From assembly GCF_056712565.1 (NCBI RefSeq), contig NZ_CM160072.1: DNA of 64,000 nucleotides; one strand, written 5' to 3'. Under the pieces are notes generated by a model, which saw nothing but the letters and a program-made list of their open reading frames with translations, did not search any database and had not been told where the DNA came from. Position numbers and translations under genes: made by a program. Of this stretch, positions 1 through 10,274 are shown one piece after another; position 1 is the first letter of the stretch; the number at the start of each line of letters is the position of its first letter.

Positions 1-91
1 ATTGACATCCTCACTGCCCTAAAGGATGGGGATTTCGGTAATGCTGCCAACTTACTGATTTAGTGTATGATGGTGATTTTAAGGTGCTTGC

Positions 92-367
92 GTGGCTTCC
101 ATTTCCATCAGATGTCCTTCCTGCTCCGCTACTGAAGGCGTGGTGCGTAACGGCAAAAGCACTGCCGGACATCAGCGCTATCTCTGCTCTCATTGCCGTA
201 AAACATGGCAACTACAGTTCACTTACACCGCCTCTCAGCCCGGTACGCACCAGAAAATCATTGATATGGCCATGAATGGCGTCGGATGTCGCGCCAGTGC
301 ACGCATTATGGGCGTTGGCCTCAACACGGTTTTACGTCACTTAAAAAACTCAGGCCGTAGTCGGTAA
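92..367 (+). CDS. insA: IS1 InsA (transposition repressor / N-terminal part of InsAB' transposase)
   Basis: 91-aa ORF with zinc-finger CPSCS...CSHC and helix-turn-helix typical of InsA. Confidence 0.9.
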
Positions 368-393
368 CCTCGCGCATACAACCGGGCAGTGAT

Positions 394-789
394 GTGATTG
401 TCTGCGCTGAAATGGACGAACAGTGGGGCTACGTCGGTGCTAAATCACGTCAGCGCTGGCTGTTTTACGCGTATGACAGGATACGGAGGACGGTTGTGGC
501 GCACGTCTTCGGTGAACGCACTCTGGCCACACTGGAGCGTCTTCTGAGCCTGCTGTCGGCCTTTGAGGTCGTGGTATAGATGACGGATGGCTGGCCGCTG
601 TATGAATCACGCCTGAAGGGAAAGCTGCACGTTATCAGCAAGCGTTACACTCAGCGCATTGAGCGACATAATCTGAATCTGAGACAACATCTGGCAAGGC
701 TGGGACGGAAGTTACTGTCGTTCTCAAAATCGGTGGAGTTGCATGACAAGGTCATCGGGCATTATCTGAACATAAAACACTATCAGTAA
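394..789 (+). pseudogene. insB: IS1 insB with in-frame TAG stop (577-579) splitting it into two ORFs (394-579, 580-789)
   Basis: ORFs ...SAFEVVV* and [36 protein letters not shown]... are contiguous in frame; recalled canonical InsB reads ...DVVIWMTDGW, so TGG to TAG is implied. Confidence 0.7.
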
Positions 790-876
790 GTTGGAGTCAT
801 TACCTCCTCCCGAACTCAAAGCTATCATACAGATAATTACTGGTTAACCCTATATAGGGCATTTTAAAGTGTTGTG

Positions 877-1250
877 ATCTTACCCAGCAATAGTGGACAC
901 GCGGCTAAGTGAGTAAACTCTCAGTCAGAGGTGACTCACAAGACAAAACAGTTTCAACCAGTAAAAAAACGTAAACACCATTCGCATGAATTTCGTAGTT
1001 AAGATCTGAAGCTTGCAGAATGCATCGGTGTTACTGCCGGAGTCCGTGAACTTAGTCTGCATTAATCACCACAGCTTTACATCTGTCGCAGTAAACAGCA
1101 AAATCAGCAAACTTACTTAATTATATCGAGTGCGATTACAATCGCTGGCGATGGTACAGTTGGTGTGGCGGTCTCAGTCCGGAACAATTTGAAAATCAGA
1201 ATCTCACTTAAAACGGCATCCATTTTACAAAAGATGGCCGTCTGTGTATT
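877..1250 (+). mobile_element. Degenerate IS3-family left-end remnant (terminal repeat TGATCTTACCCAGCAATAGTGGACACGCGGCTAAGTGAG plus decayed orfA 5' region)
   Basis: Terminal IR-like sequence at 877-915 followed by sequence resembling a decayed IS3 orfA start (no intact ATG or ORF); right limit approximate. Confidence 0.5.
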
Positions 1251-1549
1251 TATAATGAATACCTTCTACATGTTTAGAGTGCATAATCCACGACAAGGCG
1301 ATATCCTAAAAATTAGCTAGCAGGCAACTTTGATGGCATAGATAATGTTTTTAGTAAAAAAGAGTTGACTGAATATAATACAGCCTCTTCCTACATAAGA
1401 AGGAATGTGCTCACAAAAAAAACCATTAGTCTGCTTCCTGTTCTTACAATAATCAGTATTATGTATTTTATTTATATAGCAAAATATGCTTGTTACACCT
1501 GTCATAATTAGGCATGGTAAAATTATTGACTGAACCCTGGGGGAGAAAG

Positions 1550-1807
1550 ATGCACAGTGATTATTATAATATGGTTTTTGGTGAAAAATTGGCCAATATT
1601 TTATATGAAGCTAACTCTCAATTTTTTTACGAGAGAAATGTCATAGAAGAGGCAGTCAACGCTTTATTCTGTGAGCGTGAAATAATAAACAACAAGAACA
1701 TAATAAAGAAGCTGATGTTCTTTTTGTCAGATGTTAATCACACCAAGAAAGATGTTGTTCAGAGCGCACTTAATATTATCATTGACATTACATCAGGTGA
1801 TATTTGA
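1550..1807 (+). CDS. Small helical regulator of the YmgB/AriR-like family (hypothetical)
   Basis: ORF 1514-1807 with a GGGGGAG RBS-like sequence before the internal ATG at 1550; C-terminal NNKNII...SDV...K.DVV...L.IIIDITSGD resembles AriR/YmgB-type proteins; AT-rich, horizontally acquired context. Confidence 0.4.
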   Translation: MHSDYYNMVFGEKLANILYEANSQFFYERNVIEEAVNALFCEREIINNKNIIKKLMFFLSDVNHTKKDVVQSALNIIIDITSGDI

Positions 1808-2065
1808 GATTTTACATAAAAGATAATCTCTCAAGGAGTCTTATCTGAAAACGAAATATATAGTCCCTCTCGTTTTGTAATATCGATTGGCTTTGTTGAA
1901 TCGGTTACGTACCCCGGAGCCGGTCATATTTTCAGGTAATACACACGCTTTCAGACATTTCGGCTTTCGTCATTTTGGTATCATGGGCATAGCTTCTGCT
2001 ACCTGACCATCATAATCACGCAGCTTCAGTGAAGCAGTGACCACCTGTTTAACCCGGTGTATCGT

Positions 2066-2285
2066 TATGATCTTATCCAGCAATAATGGACACGCGGCTA
2101 AGTGAACCGCCCCGGGTTTCCTGGAGAGTGTTTTATCTGTGAACTCAGGCTGCCAGATCATCGTTTCCGATGGAAGCATAATAAGCTTTTTCTGCTTCTG
2201 CCGGTGGGATATGGCCCTGCCTTTCCAGCAATCGTCGATTGTTATACCAGTCCACCCACGTGAGTGTGGTCAGCTCATCATACTG
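2066..2285 (-). mobile_element. IS3-family right-end remnant (3' end of transposase orfB plus terminal inverted repeat)
   Basis: Minus-strand translation gives ...CQYDELTTLTWVDWYNNRRLLERQGHIPPAEAEKAYYASIGNDDLAA* followed by terminal repeat (2066-2104); upstream frame closed by stops. Confidence 0.55.
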
Positions 2286-2542
2286 ACACGTGCATTACCC
2301 CTACCGCGATAATGCAACCGTACAATATAGGGCGTTTCCTAAACGCAGCCCTCATCACTCCAATCCAACAAGACACAGCATTTTTGATCACGAAGAAAGA
2401 CAAATAATTTCCGTAAATGTTTCCGTTGTTACAAATAACAACAGTGTTTTACATTTCTTTGGCCTCAGGCCCGCGCATGTTGCCATTCGATGTCATTTTC
2501 CTGACTCGTTTCTTCTTTATGGTGTAGTGTGATCTTCACTTT

Positions 2543-3916
2543 ATGGATGCTAACAATATGAAAAGAAAAATTATTCCCGTGCTAATCGGTTGTACGCTCT
2601 CTTTCTCTGCCCTGGCGGCACAACCTACGGCTGAGCGCTATGTCGTCAGTTTTCCAGAAGGCACGCACGTGAACTACGCCGGCGCATTTGCCAGTGCATT
2701 CCCGAACGGCCTTCCGGTTGGGATAGGTTCTGGCCTGCTGTTCACCGGTAAACAGGGCGATGCCCTGACATTCGCAACCATTACCGATCGCGGTCCGAAC
2801 GCGGATTCACCGAAAGAGGGGAAAAACGAAACTAAAATTTTCGTTACGCCAGATTTCGCGCCGCTGCTGATGACGATTCGTGTACAAAACGGCAAAGCGG
2901 AGGCCATCGATCCCCGTCCTCTGCATGACGATAAAGGCGCGATCAACGGTCTGCCGCTGGCAAGCGACGTGATTGGCTCCACCAATGAAGTGGCCTTCAG
3001 CGACACGTTACATAGACTGAAGGGGGATAATCGCGGGCTGGATACGGAAGGGATCACTCCGGATGGTAAAGGAGGTTACTGGCTGTGCGATGAGTATGGC
3101 CCGTTCCTGATTAACATCGACAGTAAAGGGAAAATCCTGGCAATCCACGGTCCGCAGGCGGCGGAAGGGGAAAAAGCGATTGCGGGCGGTTTGCCAAATA
3201 TCCTCAAATGGCGTCAGGCGAACCGCGGCTTTGAAGGCCTCACCCGTATGCCGGACGGGCGTATTATTGTCGCCGTGCAAAGTACGCTGGATATCGACGC
3301 TAAGAGCAAGAAAAAGGCGCTGTTTACGCGTCTGGTGAGCTTCGATCCGGCAAGCGGAAAAACCGCGATGTACGGTTATCCTATCGACAGCGCGGCCTAC
3401 AGCAAAAACAGCGACGCTAAAATCGGAGACATCGTGGCGCTCGATAACCAGCACATCCTGCTGATCGAACAGGGAAGAGATAAAAACAACAGAATGCGTA
3501 ACCTGATTTACGAGGTCGATCTCAATAAGGCGAGCGACCTGTCAGGCTTCGACAAGCCGGGTGAGTATCCGGAGTTTGATGATGAGAAAACCCTGTCACA
3601 GCGCGGCATTACCCTTGCGCAGAAAACGCAGGTTGTTGATCTGCGCTCCTTGGGCTGGCAGCAGGAGAAGGCTGAAGGGTTGGCGCTGATCGACAGCAAA
3701 ACGCTGGCGGTGGCGAACGATAACGACTTTGGCGTGAAGGTGGCGATGCAACATCCGGTCGAGGGCAAGACATTCAAGGATTATCGGGTGAACGCGGAAG
3801 GAAAGCTGACGCTTGACGACAAGCAGGTTGAAACGACCCTCAGAGTGAAGCCACTGGAGAAACCGGAGTCTGACAGTGAACTGTGGATTGTGACGCTGCC
3901 GGAAGCGTTGAAATAA
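2543..3916 (+). CDS. Exported phytase-like / esterase-like beta-propeller family protein (signal peptide; alternative start at 2558)
   Basis: 457-aa ORF; N-terminal MKRKIIPVLIGCTLSFSALAA signal peptide; motifs DRGPN, GFEGLTRMPDG, NDNDFG reminiscent of phytase-like esterase domain proteins. Confidence 0.6.
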   Translation: MDANNMKRKIIPVLIGCTLSFSALAAQPTAERYVVSFPEGTHVNYAGAFASAFPNGLPVGIGSGLLFTGKQGDALTFATITDRGPNADSPKEGKNETKIFVTPDFAPLLMTIRVQNGKAEAIDPRPLHDDKGAINGLPLASDVIGSTNEVAFSDTLHRLKGDNRGLDTEGITPDGKGGYWLCDEYGPFLINIDSKGKILAIHGPQAAEGEKAIAGGLPNILKWRQANRGFEGLTRMPDGRIIVAVQSTLDIDAKSKKKALFTRLVSFDPASGKTAMYGYPIDSAAYSKNSDAKIGDIVALDNQHILLIEQGRDKNNRMRNLIYEVDLNKASDLSGFDKPGEYPEFDDEKTLSQRGITLAQKTQVVDLRSLGWQQEKAEGLALIDSKTLAVANDNDFGVKVAMQHPVEGKTFKDYRVNAEGKLTLDDKQVETTLRVKPLEKPESDSELWIVTLPEALK

Positions 3917-4119
3917 GTTTATAAGGTACGGACAGCAGTATCGCTTAGTTTTTCAAATTCATGTATGTGAACAATATTGGGGTTCCGGCGTAGACCCCCA
4001 ATGAAAGCGTCACCACGTGAAAACATGCCTGCACGGTTTACACGTCATCTCATGGTGGCAGCCGGTTAACTTTCCTGCTACACCAGTGGAAAAAGGCCAT
4101 AAGCAGTCCGAACAAAAGT

Positions 4120-5215
4120 AAGCGTACAGCGAGGGCCGTATTGACGGGGATGTGTTATTCAGCTGGCAGTGCTATGCGCCACGGAAGCAGTTCGCTGACC
4201 CGGTTGACCGGCCAGTCTGCTATGACGCCAGGCACATGGCGAAGGTAGCTTTCTGGATCCACGTCATTCAGTTTGCACGTCCCGATCAGGCTGTACAGTA
4301 GCGCTCCCCGCTCACCACCATGGCCAGAGCCGAAGAACAGGGTCTTCATCTTTTCACGCAACCAGCTTTCCAGGGATTTCAACAGCGGTTTCGTTTTTCG
4401 CTGACGTTCAGCAAGCCGCTGCTCTGCCGGCATTCCCCTTATATCCGCCTCTATGGCGTACAACTGACCGATCTGCTCTAGGGCTTCTTCCGTCAGTGCT
4501 GACGGGATGCGGACGTGCACATCGTGGATCTTTCGGCGGGCATGAGCCCAGCAGGCAGCTTCCGTTATCCCACCATTGCGATACAGCTCGTTGAACCCGG
4601 CGTACGCATCCGCTTGCAGCACACCGCTGAAGCAAGCAAGATGAGTCTGCGGATGGATGCCTTTTCTGTCCGGGCTGTAAGCGAACCACACTGCAGGTGC
4701 CAACGCTGACCCGGCATTGCGGTCATCACGAACATACGCCCACAACCGCCCGGTCTTCGTCTTCTTATTACCCGGCAGCAGTACCTGGACCGGGGTATCA
4801 TCGGCATGGAGTTTGCCGTCAGTCATGACATAGCCATGAAGCGCCTCTTCCAGCGGAGACAGCAGCCGGCAGCATGCATCCACCCAGCCCGACAGCAGTG
4901 AACGGCTCAGCTCCACACCTTGCCGGCCGTATATTTCTGACTGGCAATACAGCGGGGTGTGCTCTGCATACTTCGAGGTCAGCACGCGGGCCAGCAGCCC
5001 CGGTCCGGCGATACCCCGCTCGATGGGCCGCGAAGGTGCAGGTGCCTGCACGATGGCATCGCACTGAGTACAGGCATGTTTTTCCCGTACCGTCCGGATA
5101 ACCCGGAAGGCGCTACGCATCAACTCCAGCTGTTCGGCGGTATCAGTCTCCTCCTCGCCAGGAACGGGCTGACTCACTGTAACCACCTCCGAAAACAACT
5201 CTGCAATTATCAGAA
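4120..5215 (-). mobile_element. Truncated IS66-family element (right end with terminal GTAAGCG... repeat; 5' part missing)
   Basis: Contains C-terminal two-thirds of an IS66 TnpC-like transposase and an IS66-like terminal sequence near 4120-4150; no tnpA/tnpB upstream. Confidence 0.6.
4155..5198 (-). pseudogene. IS66-family transposase TnpC, N-terminally truncated (347 aa of ~520)
   Basis: ORF retains CxxC zinc-finger and DDE core region typical of IS66 TnpC but lacks the N-terminal leucine-zipper region and tnpA/tnpB partners. Confidence 0.7.
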
Positions 5216-5462
5216 CGCTAGTTTTCCCCTTGTCTCACGAAAGTCCTCCCTCCTTTATCGCGCGTGCGTGCGGAAGCATCTTTTCGCAACAACCCCCCGG
5301 GATTCCGCTACGGCTCTGCCATCGCAATCCCCCCGTTTATCTCCGGACAGCCACATTCCCGATTATTTTTTACGTTTCTCCCCGGTTGTTATGCCAGTGA
5401 AGGTGGCGCGCTGTTTTCATGACCACACCGGCTGGTTTAACAACATCCGGAGGAACATTCTC

Positions 5463-5669
5463 ATGGCTACCCCTGTTTCGCTGATGGATGACCAGATGGT
5501 CGACATGGCGTTTATCACTCAACTTACCGGCTTAACCGATAAGTGGTTTTACAAACTCATCAAAGATGGGGGCTTTCCTGCCCCCATCAAAATGGGGCGC
5601 AGCTCCCGCTGGCTGAAAAGTGAAGTGGAAGCCTGGCTGCAGGCGCGTATTGCACAGTCCCGTCCGTAA
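5463..5669 (+). CDS. alpA: AlpA-family prophage/island transcriptional regulator
   Basis: 68-aa product MATPVSLMDDQMVDMAFITQLTGLTDKWFYKLIKDGGFPAPIKMGRSSRWLKSEVEAWL...; the long upstream ORF extension (4959-) is a frame artefact. Confidence 0.85.
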   Translation: MATPVSLMDDQMVDMAFITQLTGLTDKWFYKLIKDGGFPAPIKMGRSSRWLKSEVEAWLQARIAQSRP

Positions 5670-5748
5670 TTTCTGACCGTTATCCGTTCACCCGCAGCAG
5701 ACGTAATCTCCGGCCTGCCGGCGGCATTCTGCTGCCTGTTATATCCCC

Positions 5749-6366
5749 GTGAGGAATATGAAAATGAAACAACAGTATCAGACCCGCTACGAATGGCTCC
5801 ACGAAAGCTACCAGAAATGGCTGACCGGCTTCACCCGGCACGCCGTATTCTGGGGCGTGTGTCATCCGAATATCTACTACTTCCATAATCTGACGCCCGG
5901 TTGGGTGTCATTCAATGGTGAAAAACCGGAGATTGCCATCGTACCCCAGAGCCTGCACCGGCTGATTTATGGCCCTGACAAACGGGCCACACCGCCCCTG
6001 GATGATGATCTGATAGTGAATTTATGCACCAGTGAACATCTGCTGGTTCATCATCCGATGCTGGAAGGCATTCTCCTGTCTGAATGTGAACGTCTGAGGC
6101 AGCGTTCTCTGGCAAATAAACTGATCAGCCTCTTCCGTCAGTTTGGTGGCACGGAGTTGCGCCTCAAACTGGTCTGGCTTTGCTGGCTTGATTTAATGAC
6201 CGGAAACTGCCTTGACGACTGGACGGAGAATCTGAAACGGAAATCAGAAAAAGAGCTGGAGGAATGGATCATCAACCGTCAGAAGCAGAGCGCAGCACTG
6301 ACGGATCTGATGGATCAGTACGTGCTCCTGTCATACCGCACAACGGTTGACGATAAGCGCACCTGA
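5749..6366 (+). CDS. Inovirus Gp2-like island protein (hypothetical)
   Basis: 205-aa ORF immediately after alpA, the position this family occupies in CP4-57/CP4-44-type islands. Confidence 0.6.
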   Translation: MRNMKMKQQYQTRYEWLHESYQKWLTGFTRHAVFWGVCHPNIYYFHNLTPGWVSFNGEKPEIAIVPQSLHRLIYGPDKRATPPLDDDLIVNLCTSEHLLVHHPMLEGILLSECERLRQRSLANKLISLFRQFGGTELRLKLVWLCWLDLMTGNCLDDWTENLKRKSEKELEEWIINRQKQSAALTDLMDQYVLLSYRTTVDDKRT

Positions 6367-6687
6367 TGCCAGTTGTTTCAGGGAAGCTGGTATCCGGGCA
6401 GGGTGCCAGGGCTGACTGAACGGCCTGTCTGCCTGCCGTTTCGCTCTCCGTGCGTTCTGTCACACGCTGCACCTGAACGCCGGACTGCGGGCACGCAGAC
6501 AGGAAAGTCGCAGGCTGGAACTTCTGACCGGCGGGTATCAGTTATATGCCTGTTGATTCATCACCACCACGCAGCTCCTGAGCTTTAGTTCATCACCGAT
6601 ATTCATACATCTGAATATCGGTGATGAAATCCCCATAATAATCAATCATCTAAGTCTGAAGCATAATGGAGAAAAACTGCTCACCGG

Positions 6688-8241
6688 TTACTTCGCTCTC
6701 AGCTTATTGTAGTGATAACCCGAGGTAAAAATACCAGAGACATCAGACAACTTTAAACTGGCTATCTGGGGAAGCAGAACATACATGGTTTTTCCTTCCG
6801 GCACGACAGAAAGCCTGAACTGAGATTCAAGAATGTTCAGCAATGCGTTCAGTTTTTTCCTGTTTCTGAACCGGCCCGGGCCACACTGGAGAATATAATT
6901 TTTCCTGACACGGGGCGGGCATTCTCCGCGGCACTCCTCAATGAGCCAGTCGAACAGCTCCTCGGCGTCCTTCTGCTGCAGTTCAGATTCATCAGGTAAC
7001 GCAAATAATTTTTTATATTCATCTGTGTACCACGAACTTATTACGACAGCAGACGTCATGATATCGGCAGAGATTTTCCCTTCACCATAGCTGAAATACT
7101 GAAATAACGCTGCAATTCTTGCAATGTTTTCTGTTTTTTTTGAAACATGTCCCCGAAACGGGCTTAAGGGTCCGGAAGGGGATAAATCCTGCTCCAGAAC
7201 ATTATAGTGCTCAATAAATATTTTTTGCGCTTCAGGCGAAAAATGCAGACAATACCGTTCATCCTCACTGGATTTTTCAATACTGCCTCTGGCCAGTTCC
7301 ATTAATCGTTCATGAAATGCCGTTAATGATCCTCCCGGAATCACAGCTCCGTTAATAAAGCGTTTCCCCTGCGTGGTTGCAGGTTTACTGATAAGACAAC
7401 GGGCAAGAAAACCACTGTCCCTGGCAACAGAACCTTTTCGCTCCATATATCGGTCAAAAAGACCGGGTTGCACCATGAGGGATAACGTCATTCTGGCATT
7501 TTCAATCATCTGTTCGGGTTCATTCTTTCTGTCCACAGACAATACAGAGCCATCCCACATTTTGTTAATAAAAGGCAACTCAGACAGGGTATATCCATCA
7601 AATATAATACCGGCTTCATCTGACATAATACCAACTGAACGCCATTTACCACAAAGCTGATTCTTAATTGCCGCAGTCGTGGCATCATTAAAAATGAATT
7701 TATACCTCACAGGTTCTTCCGCACTGTTTTTCTGAAGTACTTCCAGTTGTCTGAGGGTTTCTGACTCATCCGCGCCTTTGCGGAGTTCTTTATTCAGTTT
7801 TGACAACAATGCTTTTTTCTGAGCCTTTAAAAGCTCTTCCTTGTTTTTCCAGACAGCCAGTTCACTTTTGTATCTGGAATATAACTGCATCTCCTGCTGG
7901 TACAGGGGCTTCATTAATAATTTGTCCACTGCGGTTTTTCGTTCTCCGGACTCGGCAAGCGTCAGGAAAAAAAGAGAGACCGGCCCCCGCAGTGTATTCA
8001 GTCTGCAGACATCAATCAGATTCTGGCAGACAAGTGAAACAGCGCCCAGGGCAGACGCTGCCACAAGCCCAAGGGGAGCCTGCGTAATTTGCTGAGCTTC
8101 AATAACGGCATCACGAATGAGTGGAGGCAGCGAACTCAGGGGAAACTCATCACAAGGCTGACCGAATGACATAGTAACCTCACTATACACAGATATAAAA
8201 GCACTGCAATTCTGGCTATTAATAGCAAAAATAGCAGTCAA
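6688..8241 (-). CDS. YfjI-like island protein (DUF3987 family); true start may be internal (about 8172)
   Basis: 517-aa ORF; size and context match yfjI-type genes of CP4-57-like elements; contains an A8/T8 homopolymer at 7134-7141. Confidence 0.6.
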   Translation of the reverse strand: MTAIFAINSQNCSAFISVYSEVTMSFGQPCDEFPLSSLPPLIRDAVIEAQQITQAPLGLVAASALGAVSLVCQNLIDVCRLNTLRGPVSLFFLTLAESGERKTAVDKLLMKPLYQQEMQLYSRYKSELAVWKNKEELLKAQKKALLSKLNKELRKGADESETLRQLEVLQKNSAEEPVRYKFIFNDATTAAIKNQLCGKWRSVGIMSDEAGIIFDGYTLSELPFINKMWDGSVLSVDRKNEPEQMIENARMTLSLMVQPGLFDRYMERKGSVARDSGFLARCLISKPATTQGKRFINGAVIPGGSLTAFHERLMELARGSIEKSSEDERYCLHFSPEAQKIFIEHYNVLEQDLSPSGPLSPFRGHVSKKTENIARIAALFQYFSYGEGKISADIMTSAVVISSWYTDEYKKLFALPDESELQQKDAEELFDWLIEECRGECPPRVRKNYILQCGPGRFRNRKKLNALLNILESQFRLSVVPEGKTMYVLLPQIASLKLSDVSGIFTSGYHYNKLRAK

Positions 8242-9401
8242 ATCAATATGAGGTAAAATTTTTTGTTGATTTAATGGTTAAATAATAACCACAGTGTATT
8301 TTGCTGCTGAAGAAAGACAAAATGAATCTGTGTGTCCCCTCCTTCCCTTCGGAGCACATCCACTATTCAAATTTTACACAACCACGTACGAACAAAAAGC
8401 ATCATCCCGGGTATTGCAGATACCGGTTTCCTGCCGGGAAGAATCATAAACAGAACACCGGGAATAACGCCTTCAGGAATCACCCCCCCTCCTGAAGAAG
8501 AATAAAATAAAGAAGACTACAGTTCCTGCACTGAATGCTGAGTACAATATTTTATGGACAGGATGACATTTTTATAAATAACAAAAACCATTTAATACTG
8601 ATACATCAATAAAATACTTCTTCCCTGCTGACACAGATAAAATGCACCATTTTTTCTTCAAATACTTCTGTATAATCGCCAGCCAATGATGAGAATGGAT
8701 TAAAATAACACTTCTTCGACAAACACAAAAACAGCCTTCATTTTACATCATCATCCAGTTTCAGTTAACCCCGGACGAGCGACAGTGTTTCAGTACAGGA
8801 ATTAAAAGCCAGCTTTTGCTCAGTAAAACACACTCAACTAATAATATCTCAGCAGATATTATCCTGACCAGGACACCTCACATTACTGAATTCTCTTCCG
8901 ACAGTATCACTGCACAAATAAAAAGAACGGGATAAATATTCAGACCGGAAGAATGGTGTCACAAAAGCATTTAATCATTACGCATGACCAGGAAGGGAAA
9001 CACTTAACCACATGGTATCAACAGATATCATTACGTGTGCACTCTTATAAAAAACACACAGAAGAAGTAAGATAATTATAAACGTAAATTTAATATCTCC
9101 CACTGACATCTCCCCCACAATACACTAAAAAATACTCACAGCAGTAAACACAGATACACCTGATAATCATACAGCCGATAAATATTTTCCCCTTTACGGA
9201 GAAATCAGCCTGCTGTTTAACAATAACGGCGTATTTTCATGGAAGGAGATCACCCAGTAACGGATAAGTCCTGATCTCCTTCATGTTAATACGCAACAAT
9301 CCCATCGATTCAAAACAATTTCAGACAGATATTATCTCCGTGAATCCCCCGCCACCTTTCCGGTGCGCGGGGTTTTGTCTTTTTTCACCGGGAATACATG
9401 T

Positions 9402-10274
9402 ATGAATCCGTCTGATGCCATTGAGGCAATTGAAAAACCGCTCTCCTCCCTGCCTTACTCACTTTCCCGTCACATCCTGGAACATCTGCGCAAACTCACC
9501 AGTCACGAACCCGTGATTGGCATTATGGGTAAAAGCGGGGCCGGTAAATCCTCACTCTGTAATGCACTGTTTCAGGGGGAGGTCACCCCGGTCAGTGATG
9601 TTCACGCCGGCACCCGGGAAGTACGGCGCTTCCGTCTGAGTGGCCACGGTCACAGCATGGTTATCACTGACCTGCCCGGGGTGGGCGAGAGCCGGGACAG
9701 GGATGCAGAGTATGAAGCCCTGTACCGTGACATTCTGCCCGAACTGGACCTGGTGCTGTGGCTGATTAAAGCCGATGACCGCGCCCTGTCTGTGGATGAG
9801 TATTTCTGGCGACACATCCTGCACCGGGGACATCAGCAGGTGCTGTTTGTGGTGACGCAGGCCGACAAAACGGAGCCCTGCCATGAATGGGATATGGCCG
9901 GCATTCAGCCTTCTCCCGCACAGGCACAGAACATTCGGGAGAAAACGGAGGCGGTATTCCGTCTGTTCCGGCCCGTACATCCGGTTGTTGCCGTATCGGC
10001 CCGCACCGGCTGGGAACTGGATACGCTGGTCAGTGCGCTAATGACAGCACTTCCCGACCATGCCGCCAGTCCCCTGATGACCCGCCTGCAGGACGAGCTG
10101 CGCACGGAATCTGTCCGCGCTCAGGCCCGTGAACAGTTTACCGGTGCGGTGGACCGGATATTTGACACGGCGGAGAGCGTCTGTGTTGCCTCTGTTGCCC
10201 GTACGGTTCTGCGTGCCGTCCGTGACACGGTGGTCTCTGTTGCCCGCGCTGTATGGAACTGGATTTTCTTCTGA
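9402..10274 (+). CDS. yeeP: YeeP/YfjP/YkfA-family GTPase (50S ribosome-binding GTPase domain)
   Basis: P-loop GIMGKSGAGKSS, DLPGVGE switch region; canonical partner upstream of flu in CP4-44-type islands; appears intact here. Confidence 0.8.
   Translation: MNPSDAIEAIEKPLSSLPYSLSRHILEHLRKLTSHEPVIGIMGKSGAGKSSLCNALFQGEVTPVSDVHAGTREVRRFRLSGHGHSMVITDLPGVGESRDRDAEYEALYRDILPELDLVLWLIKADDRALSVDEYFWRHILHRGHQQVLFVVTQADKTEPCHEWDMAGIQPSPAQAQNIREKTEAVFRLFRPVHPVVAVSARTGWELDTLVSALMTALPDHAASPLMTRLQDELRTESVRAQAREQFTGAVDRIFDTAESVCVASVARTVLRAVRDTVVSVARAVWNWIFF

What the first reader, a model, noticed from the sequence alone, without database searches (positions are those of the whole stretch)
37..804. IS1 copy with a TGG to TAG nonsense codon in insB
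insA is intact, but the insB frame is broken at 577-579 (…EVVV* then MTDGW…), so this copy cannot make a full InsAB' transposase. It would be non-autonomous yet still mobilisable in trans, and it marks the position where K-12 has an IS1 directly abutting yjhU.
Basis: partly seen in the sequence, partly recalled or inferred. Interest (0 to 1): 0.3.

Follow-up and report, generated by a model that had tools for sequence, protein, structure and literature searches.

The report
Dead IS1F copy beside fec operon
This is the well-known chromosomal insertion sequence IS1F next to the iron-citrate (fec) genes of E. coli, whose transposase gene is a catalogued pseudogene; here it has two premature stop codons, not one, so the finding is real but ordinary.

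Summary
Window 37-804 is a 768-bp IS1 with an intact insA, and TAG replaces TGG at 577-579 in the insB frame. The element is IS1F. It is 765/768 identical to K-12 IS1F, has the same left junction downstream of fecI/ykiE, and K-12 already lists its insB7 (b4576) as a pseudogene. PGAP labels the identical copy 'programmed frameshift; internal stop'. It lies four codons after the A6C frameshift site, is synonymous in insA, and is absent from K-12. In this allele the frameshifted product therefore ends before the DDE domain starts. Intact relatives exist: 99.2% identical multi-copy elements in Mixta and Siccibacter, a 99.5% copy with a target duplication in E. coli 7/2, and at least 18 E. coli genomes with an intact copy at this same fec junction. 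The stop codons are thus a widespread polymorphism of a decaying element. Published K-12 experiments show IS1F is immobile by itself but moves when InsAB' is overexpressed in trans. K-12's 'IS1 abutting yjhU' is a derived 21.3-kb deletion; here yjhU lies about 21 kb away. Already known; low interest.

The parts
37..804 (+). IS1F, a 768-bp iso-IS1 element (complete, with both ends)
   Evidence: It is 765/768 identical to K-12 IS1F and 696/768 (90.6%) to IS1A. PGAP annotates the identical copy as 'IS1 family transposase; programmed frameshift; internal stop'.
37..59 (+). Left terminal inverted repeat (IRL), GGTAATGCTGCCAACTTACTGAT
   Evidence: It differs from IS1A IRL at one base (G->A at position 4). 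There are 3 mismatches to IRR over 23 nt, against 5 in IS1A.
44..71 (+). Promoter-like site in IRL (CTGCCA-16-TATGAT), at the position of the IS1 promoter
   Evidence: Consensus scan. The bases are the same in IS1A. Its function is inferred from established IS1 biology, not tested.
92..367 (+). insA, intact (91 codons, GTG start): zinc ribbon plus helix-turn-helix repressor/inhibitor
   Evidence: ORF list. Pfam Zn_ribbon_InsA and HTH_Tnp_IS1 both match. The protein equals that of the intact copy in E. coli 7/2.
343..349 (+). A6C slippery motif for the programmed -1 frameshift, intact
358..360 (+). First amber codon in the -1 (InsAB') frame: CAG->TAG, InsAB' codon 90 (InsB codon 25). Synonymous CGC->CGT in insA.
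   Evidence: K-12 IS1F, IS1A and all intact relatives have C at this base. The exact 99-mer carrying T occurs in 798 E. coli records.
286..789 (+). insB reading frame (pseudogene), interrupted at 358-360 and 577-579; natural stop TAA at 787-789
   Evidence: Translations. K-12 counterpart is the insB7/b4576 pseudogene. The repaired product matches Pfam DDE_Tnp_IS1 over 131/131 profile positions.
577..579 (+). Second amber codon: TGG->TAG, InsAB' codon 163 (InsB codon 98). It lies three codons before the presumed second catalytic Asp (MTDGW, 586-588).
   Evidence: It is shared with K-12 IS1F. The exact 99-mer is in 1,956 records. The DDE assignment is recalled from the literature, not tested.
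782..804 (+). Right terminal inverted repeat (IRR)
1..36 (.). Left flank: the last bases of ykiE and the spacer upstream of fecI, identical to K-12. There is no target-site duplication (GGGGATTTC on the left, TCCTCCCGA on the right).
805..22123 (.). 21,319-bp island segment directly right of IS1F that K-12 lacks. K-12 DNA resumes at 22124, and yjhU is at about 22222-23208 on the minus strand.
   Evidence: BLAST of the K-12 right flank onto the window: 99.94% identity from base 1 to window 22124-26884. Gene content from a near-identical genome.

Best explanation
This is IS1F, the iso-IS1 that bounds the fec (ferric citrate) gene cluster in about half of complete E. coli genomes. It is caught here in an advanced state of decay. 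It descends from an active lineage that PGAP calls the IS1F/IS1X2 family. That lineage is still intact and multi-copy in Mixta, Siccibacter and Klebsiella, and in many E. coli strains and plasmids. In this allele two C:G->T:A transitions created amber codons in the transposase frame. One is at InsAB' codon 163 and is shared with K-12. The other is at codon 90 and is specific to this allele group. Normal translation therefore yields InsA. The rare -1 frameshift yields only an InsA-like 89-residue protein with no catalytic domain. The element keeps both inverted repeats, its promoter region and the slippery site. It is therefore a non-autonomous element. It cannot move itself, but it can still bind InsA/InsAB', serve as a substrate for transposase supplied in trans, and act as a portable stretch of homology for recombination and gene conversion. 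Shown here: the sequence lesions, their distribution and the intact relatives. Shown in the literature for the K-12 allele: native immobility and mobilisation in trans. Inferred: InsA is still made here, and this allele behaves like the K-12 one.
For: The identity and both lesions are documented. K-12 annotates insB7 (b4576) as a pseudogene, and PGAP notes 'internal stop' on the identical copy. The repaired InsAB' has all three Pfam IS1 domains, with the DDE domain at residues 102-232, so both stops fall before or inside it. Divergence from IS1A downstream of insA is 30 synonymous against 11 non-synonymous codon changes, meaning the lineage evolved as a working gene before it was inactivated. 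Intact copies at 98.4-99.2% identity all carry CAG and TGG. An intact 99.5% copy with an 8-bp target duplication sits in E. coli 7/2, a genome that also holds this exact dead copy. Intact alleles occur at the same fec junction in at least 18 genomes. Among fec-linked alleles the insA region carries 3 non-synonymous and 2 synonymous variants, which fits neutral decay. Native immobility and trans-mobilisation of K-12 IS1F are published (PMC12428005, PMC12903888). TAG-bearing copies also lie in at least three non-fec plasmid contexts.
Against: Nothing contradicts the pseudogene reading. Four caveats apply. The published mobility data concern the K-12 allele, not this one. The plasmid-borne TAG copies lack target duplications, so they do not prove simple transposition in nature. 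Whether a helper IS1 exists in the source genome could not be determined; the window holds no other IS1. Expression of InsA was not measured.
Confidence: 0.93

Rival explanations
1. Domesticated InsA module. On this reading the copy is kept because its intact insA supplies a trans-acting repressor or inhibitor that dampens incoming IS1F/IS1X2-type elements. The amber at 358-360, silent in insA, would have been favoured because it abolishes transposase while sparing InsA.
For: InsA here is identical to that of an active sister copy, and C->T at 358 is synonymous in insA but nonsense in insB. The element persists at one locus in about 2,565 genomes.
Against: Other fec-linked alleles carry non-synonymous insA changes: H34P inside the CxxC zinc motif and T52K in K-12, and N86K in E2865. 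The tally is 3 non-synonymous to 2 synonymous variants, so there is no sign of purifying selection. Linkage to fec explains persistence without any selection on the IS. One silent/nonsense coincidence is weak evidence.
Confidence: 0.04
2. The stops are read through, by a natural suppressor tRNA or context-dependent read-through, or translation restarts at ATG 580 right after the TAG. Either route would still assemble an active or split transposase.
For: The TAG at 577-579 is directly followed by ATG. A Gln-inserting amber suppressor would restore the wild-type Gln at 358-360 (inference).
Against: K-12 IS1F, which has only the 577-579 stop, produced no detectable insertions when it was among the only IS1 copies left (PMC12428005). 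This allele has two stops, so read-through efficiencies multiply on top of the frameshift, which PMC12428005 describes as rare (about 2% of transcripts). The first stop prevents ribosomes from reaching 580 in frame. Splitting the presumed DDE triad between two peptides has no precedent that I know of in IS1.
Confidence: 0.02
3. Sequencing or assembly artefact: the stop codons are base-calling errors in this one assembly.
For: None.
Against: The identical 768 bp occurs in many independently sequenced genomes, including BL21, strain C and clinical isolates. The exact 99-mers occur in 798 and 1,956 records.
Confidence: 0.01

Closest known systems
IS1F of E. coli K-12 MG1655 (insA7 b4294, insB7 b4576 pseudogene; NC_000913.3 4518472-4519239)
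   Same: It is the same element at the same left junction downstream of fecI/ykiE. Identity is 765/768 nt, with the same TAG at InsB codon 98 and the same derived bases at IS positions 636, 677 and 703.
   Different: The window allele has an additional amber at 358-360 (IS position 322). It lacks K-12's two private insA missense changes (H34P, T52K). Its right flank is a 21.3-kb island segment that K-12 has lost. The K-12-type junction is in 357 genomes, and the window-type junction in 2,064.
Intact IS1F/IS1X2-type elements (Mixta spp., Siccibacter colletis, Klebsiella pneumoniae ATCC 13883, E. coli 7/2 RHS insertion; fec-linked copies in SCEC020007, SCU-316, Z1323HEC0393)
   Same: They share 97.8-99.7% nucleotide identity, the same length, ends and frameshift site. 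Some sit at exactly the same fec junction with the same flanks.
   Different: They carry CAG and TGG at the two codons and are annotated as complete frameshifted transposases (WP_094106546.1, WP_224689110.1). They are multi-copy, and at least one has a target duplication, so they are or recently were active.
Canonical IS1 (IS1A/IS1E of K-12)
   Same: The architecture is the same: 768 bp, about 23-bp inverted repeats, insA, the A6C -1 frameshift and insB' with a DDE_Tnp_IS1 domain.
   Different: There are 72 nucleotide differences (90.6% identity) and slightly better matched ends (3 against 5 IRL/IRR mismatches). The canonical transposase frame is open and the element is mobile in K-12.

Membership tests
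IS1 family insertion sequence | About 768-bp element bounded by about 23-bp imperfect inverted repeats starting GGT(A/G)ATG | tested here: met
   Window 37-59 and 782-804. There is one base difference from the IS1A IRL and one from its IRR.
IS1 family insertion sequence | insA and insB' in overlapping 0/-1 frames joined by an A6C slippery motif | tested here: met
   insA is at 92-367, A6C at 343-349, and the insB frame runs to 789. The insB frame is interrupted twice.
IS1 family insertion sequence | Encoded protein carries Zn_ribbon_InsA, HTH_Tnp_IS1 and DDE_Tnp_IS1 domains | tested here: met
   The repaired InsAB' matches PF03811 (E = 1.6e-19), PF12759 (E = 1.8e-27) and PF03400 (E = 1.6e-73, 131/131 profile positions).
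IS1 family insertion sequence | 8-9-bp target-site duplication flanking a simple insertion | tested here: not met
   The flanks are GGGGATTTC and TCCTCCCGA. This describes the history of this copy (rearranged flank) and is not a criterion for membership of the family.
IS1F iso-form (K-12 type IV IS1) | Near-identity to K-12 IS1F and the orthologous position next to fecI/ykiE | tested here: met
   765/768 nt match, with an identical 36-nt left flank. A near-identical proxy genome has 13 mismatches over 6,036 nt of the fec flank against K-12.
Autonomous (transposase-competent) IS | Uninterrupted InsAB' reading path through the DDE domain | tested here: not met
   Amber codons sit at InsAB' codons 90 and 163.
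Non-autonomous element mobilisable in trans | Intact transposase-binding ends | tested here: met
   Both inverted repeats are complete and identical to those of K-12 IS1F, since the three differences lie at IS positions 156, 210 and 322.
Non-autonomous element mobilisable in trans | Demonstrated movement when transposase is supplied from elsewhere | not testable with these tools
   This is shown for the K-12 allele only, where IS1F supplied 44% of 48 sequenced insertions under InsAB' overexpression (PMC12903888). Natural TAG-bearing copies at other sites lack target duplications.

The most novel reading that the evidence does not exclude
The fec-linked IS1F is more than a relic. On this reading it is a maintained InsA-only locus that lowers transposition of related IS1F/IS1X2 elements arriving on plasmids. 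The recurrent shuffling of intact and amber alleles at this one site, where all four combinations of position 542 with positions 677/703 exist, would then reflect an ongoing conflict between reactivation by gene conversion and re-silencing.
Probability: 0.04. Interest if true: 0.4.

Novelty: already known. Interest (0 to 1): 0.1.

Why it matters
It matters little. The element and its broken insB are already in the K-12 reference annotation and in PGAP output. Three modest points are useful. (1) The amber codon or codons give a sufficient, simple explanation for the native immobility of IS1F. Two 2025 experimental papers left that immobility unexplained: neither text contains 'nonsense', 'pseudogene' or 'premature', and every 'stop codon' passage found concerns the native insA/insAB' stops or reporter constructs rather than IS1F. 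(2) This widespread allele carries a second, earlier stop, so results from K-12 IS1F should not be assumed to describe the same protein products. (3) K-12's IS1F-yjhU junction is a derived 21.3-kb deletion ending exactly at the IS end. This is a textbook trace of IS1 activity at a copy that cannot make its own transposase.

Tried and rejected
I tried to read Umeda & Ohtsubo 1991 (Gene 98:1, the original description of IS1F) and Ohta et al. 2002 (the IS1 DDE motif). Neither is held. Whether the 1991 paper already noted the amber, and the exact catalytic residues, therefore rest on my recollection and on motif position only.

I could not list the other IS1 copies of the source genome. The window has none. 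The search tool shows one place per record, so it did not give the coordinates of the other three IS1 matches in the closest proxy, MCJCHV-1 (4 places).

The species-representative genome scan returned TAG only once, in a 547-bp 'Archangium' contig that is 100% E. coli-like and probably contamination. It therefore gave no information on TAG outside E. coli.

I looked for target-site duplications around TAG-bearing plasmid copies, as proof of natural trans-mobilisation, and found none.

An Rfam scan of the window found nothing in the IS1. The artefact, read-through and split-transposase readings were considered and rejected (see rivals).

Full report
**Observation**

Window 37-804 (+) is a complete 768-bp IS1. 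It starts GGTAATGCTGCCAACTTACTGAT and ends with the matching inverted repeat. insA (92-367, GTG start, 91 codons) is open. In the -1 frame the sequence reads …EVVV-TAG-ATG-TDGW…, with the TAG at 577-579. IS1A of K-12 has TGG at that codon. It is not noise: the exact 99-mer around the TAG occurs in 1,956 records of the complete-genome E. coli collection. The whole 768 bp is 100% identical in many independent assemblies, including BL21, strain C and clinical isolates.

Alignment with IS1A and K-12 IS1F shows a C->T change at window 358 (IS position 322). It converts CAG to TAG at 358-360 in the -1 frame, four codons after the A6C slippery motif (343-349). In insA it is a silent CGC->CGT change. 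After the programmed frameshift, the ribosome therefore stops at InsAB' codon 90. In the repaired protein, Pfam places the DDE_Tnp_IS1 domain at residues 102-232, with Zn_ribbon_InsA at 1-36 and HTH_Tnp_IS1 at 43-86. This allele thus cannot make any part of the catalytic domain. The codon-163 stop alone, as in K-12, would remove the presumed second Asp (MTDGW, 586-588) and the Glu (RIERHN, 661-663). Those residue assignments are recalled from the literature and were not tested here.

**Identity of the element**

The element is IS1F. It differs from K-12 IS1F at three bases (IS positions 156, 210 and 322) and has the same 36-nt left flank. In a near-identical proxy genome (MCJCHV-1) the fecI-fecC flank differs from K-12 at 13 of 6,036 positions. 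K-12 annotates insA7 (b4294) as a gene and insB7 (b4576) as a pseudogene. PGAP labels the identical copy 'IS1 family transposase; programmed frameshift; internal stop'. The TAG at 577-579 is therefore the catalogued state of the reference element, not a peculiarity of this window.

**Origin**

IS1F differs from IS1A at 72 positions (90.6% identity). Downstream of insA the differences are 30 synonymous against 11 non-synonymous codons, including the stop. The lineage therefore diverged as a working gene.

An exact-pattern scan of species-representative genomes found 57 loci with the IS1F-specific sequence around the codon. Every full-length copy there has CAG and TGG. These include:
- at least 27 copies in Mixta sp. 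Marseille-Q2659 and at least 19 in M. mediterraneensis, at 98.4-99.2% identity;
- copies in Siccibacter colletis at 99.0-99.2% identity;
- copies in Klebsiella pneumoniae ATCC 13883 at 97.8% identity.

Relative to these intact copies, the E. coli fec-linked allele group has four derived transitions: 542 (the amber), 636 (silent), 677 (S->L) and 703 (silent). The window allele adds 322, the second amber.

**Population picture in E. coli**

| Feature | Count |
|---|---|
| Left (fec) junction plus IS | 2,565 of 5,426 complete genomes |
| Window-type right junction | 2,064 genomes |
| K-12-type right junction | 357 genomes; the 12 listed are K-12 or other laboratory-derived strains |
| Exact 99-mer with T at position 322 | 798 records |
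| Exact 99-mer with TAG at position 542 | 1,956 records |
| Same 99-mer with TGG | 2,036 records, at many chromosomal and plasmid sites |

Intact elements of this subfamily are therefore common in the species. One example is a 99.5% identical, PGAP-complete copy with an 8-bp target duplication inside an RHS gene of strain 7/2. That genome also holds the exact dead copy.

A query joining the fec flank to a repaired IS found 18 genomes with a perfect match. The three inspected have the same flanks on both sides and a complete, non-pseudo transposase annotation. Among fec-linked copies, all four combinations of G/A at position 542 with CC/TT at positions 677/703 occur. The locus has therefore experienced recombination or gene conversion with other copies, or recurrent mutation. 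The stop is a polymorphism, not a fixed state.

**Mobility**

Two 2025 papers on K-12 BW25113 report the relevant experiments:
- Only IS1A and IS1E transpose natively.
- A strain retaining only IS1B, C, D and F gives no detectable IS1 insertions (PMC12428005).
- When InsAB' is overexpressed in trans, all four move, and IS1F supplies 44% of 48 sequenced insertions (PMC12903888).

The window allele has identical ends, so the same behaviour is inferred but not shown.

Neither paper's text contains 'nonsense', 'pseudogene' or 'premature'. Every 'stop codon' passage found concerns the native insA/insAB' stops or reporter constructs, not IS1F. One of the papers says the reason for IS1F's immobility is unknown. 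The annotated amber is a sufficient explanation.

In nature, TAG-bearing copies also occur away from fec, on IncF plasmids next to hicAB, on pEGY2 and on an Enterobacter mcr-10 plasmid. They have no target duplications, so they suggest spread but do not prove it.

**Context**

The element has no target duplication here (GGGGATTTC against TCCTCCCGA) or in K-12. The K-12 sequence immediately right of IS1F aligns from its first base to window 22124-26884 at 99.94% identity. K-12 therefore lacks window 805-22123 (21,319 bp), which holds these genes:
- an AriR-like regulator;
- a phytase-like esterase;
- IS fragments;
- YfjI;
- Ag43;
- an antirestriction protein;
- a YeeU/CbtA remnant;
- mtnK and mtnA.

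Strain E2865 carries the K-12-like IS allele together with the window-type right flank, so the deletion is the derived state. A deletion ending exactly at an IS1 end is the classic product of IS1 intramolecular transposition (established knowledge). Because the K-12 copy already carries the amber, the simplest reading is that transposase came from another copy; this is inference. In this window yjhU lies at about 22222-23208, not next to the IS.

**Rival readings**

- An InsA-only 'domesticated repressor' reading cannot be excluded, but it is weakly supported. InsA here equals that of an active copy, yet other fec-linked alleles carry H34P, T52K and N86K. The tally in insA is 3 non-synonymous to 2 synonymous variants.
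- Read-through or re-initiation is contradicted by the native immobility of the single-stop K-12 allele and by the presence of two stops here.
- An artefact is excluded.

**Verdict**

The added details are a second amber, intact alleles at the same site, the active sister lineage, and the K-12 deletion. They refine the picture without making it novel.

Noticed in passing
window 805-22123: This 21.3-kb island segment (AriR-like regulator, phytase-like esterase, IS3/IS5/IS66 fragments, YfjI, GTPase, Ag43, antirestriction protein, YeeU/CbtA remnant, mtnK-mtnA, fuculose aldolase, GRP transporter) is absent from K-12. The K-12 deletion ends exactly at the right end of IS1F. The window-type junction is in 2,064 genomes and the K-12-type junction in 357.
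   Followed up: partly
window 10391-10627 (+): Rfam IS102 RNA (RF00124) match at 74.6 bits, with a gathering score of 46. It was the only Rfam hit in the window and lies in the area annotated as an IS66 transposase fragment in a near-identical genome.
   Followed up: no
L061 (E. coli E2865, fec-linked IS1F), IS position 313: This allele has C->A in the A6C slippery motif, making A7. In insA this is N86K. It is a further independent lesion in the frameshift signal of a fec-linked copy.
   Followed up: no
L069, L070, L071 (SCEC020007, Z1323HEC0393, SCU-316): At the same fec junction and with the same flanks, these genomes carry an IS1F with an open InsAB' path. All four combinations of position 542 with positions 677/703 exist among fec-linked copies, pointing to gene conversion or recurrent mutation.
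   Followed up: partly
L004-L027 and L035-L053 (Mixta sp. Marseille-Q2659, Mixta mediterraneensis): Dozens of intact IS1F-like copies per genome at 98.4-99.2% identity to the window element, apparently a recent burst of the active sister lineage.
   Followed up: partly
L032 (Archangium violaceum, 547-bp contig); L031 (Candidatus Nanosynbacter MAG); L066 (Klebsiella oxytoca FDAARGOS_1334, 9.5-kb linear 'plasmid'): These records hold E. coli-type IS1F sequence. L032 is 100% identical over 396 nt including the TAG. L066 carries fecIRA plus the double-amber allele, 100% identical over 716 nt. They are probably contamination or mis-binning, or for L066 possibly recent transfer.
   Followed up: no
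L063/L067, L065, L068 (IncF plasmids next to hicAB; pEk140_mcr-10; pEGY2): Full-length IS1F-type copies carrying the 542 amber but not the 677/703 changes sit in at least three non-fec plasmid contexts. None has a target-site duplication.
   Followed up: partly
window 22124-26884 against K-12; L001 1-6036 against K-12: The DNA on both sides of the IS is nearly identical to K-12: 99.94% over 4,761 nt on the yjhU side and 13 mismatches in 6,036 nt on the fec side. This seems very low for unrelated strains and hints that this fec/KpLE2-like region moves horizontally. It was not tested against genome-wide divergence.
   Followed up: no
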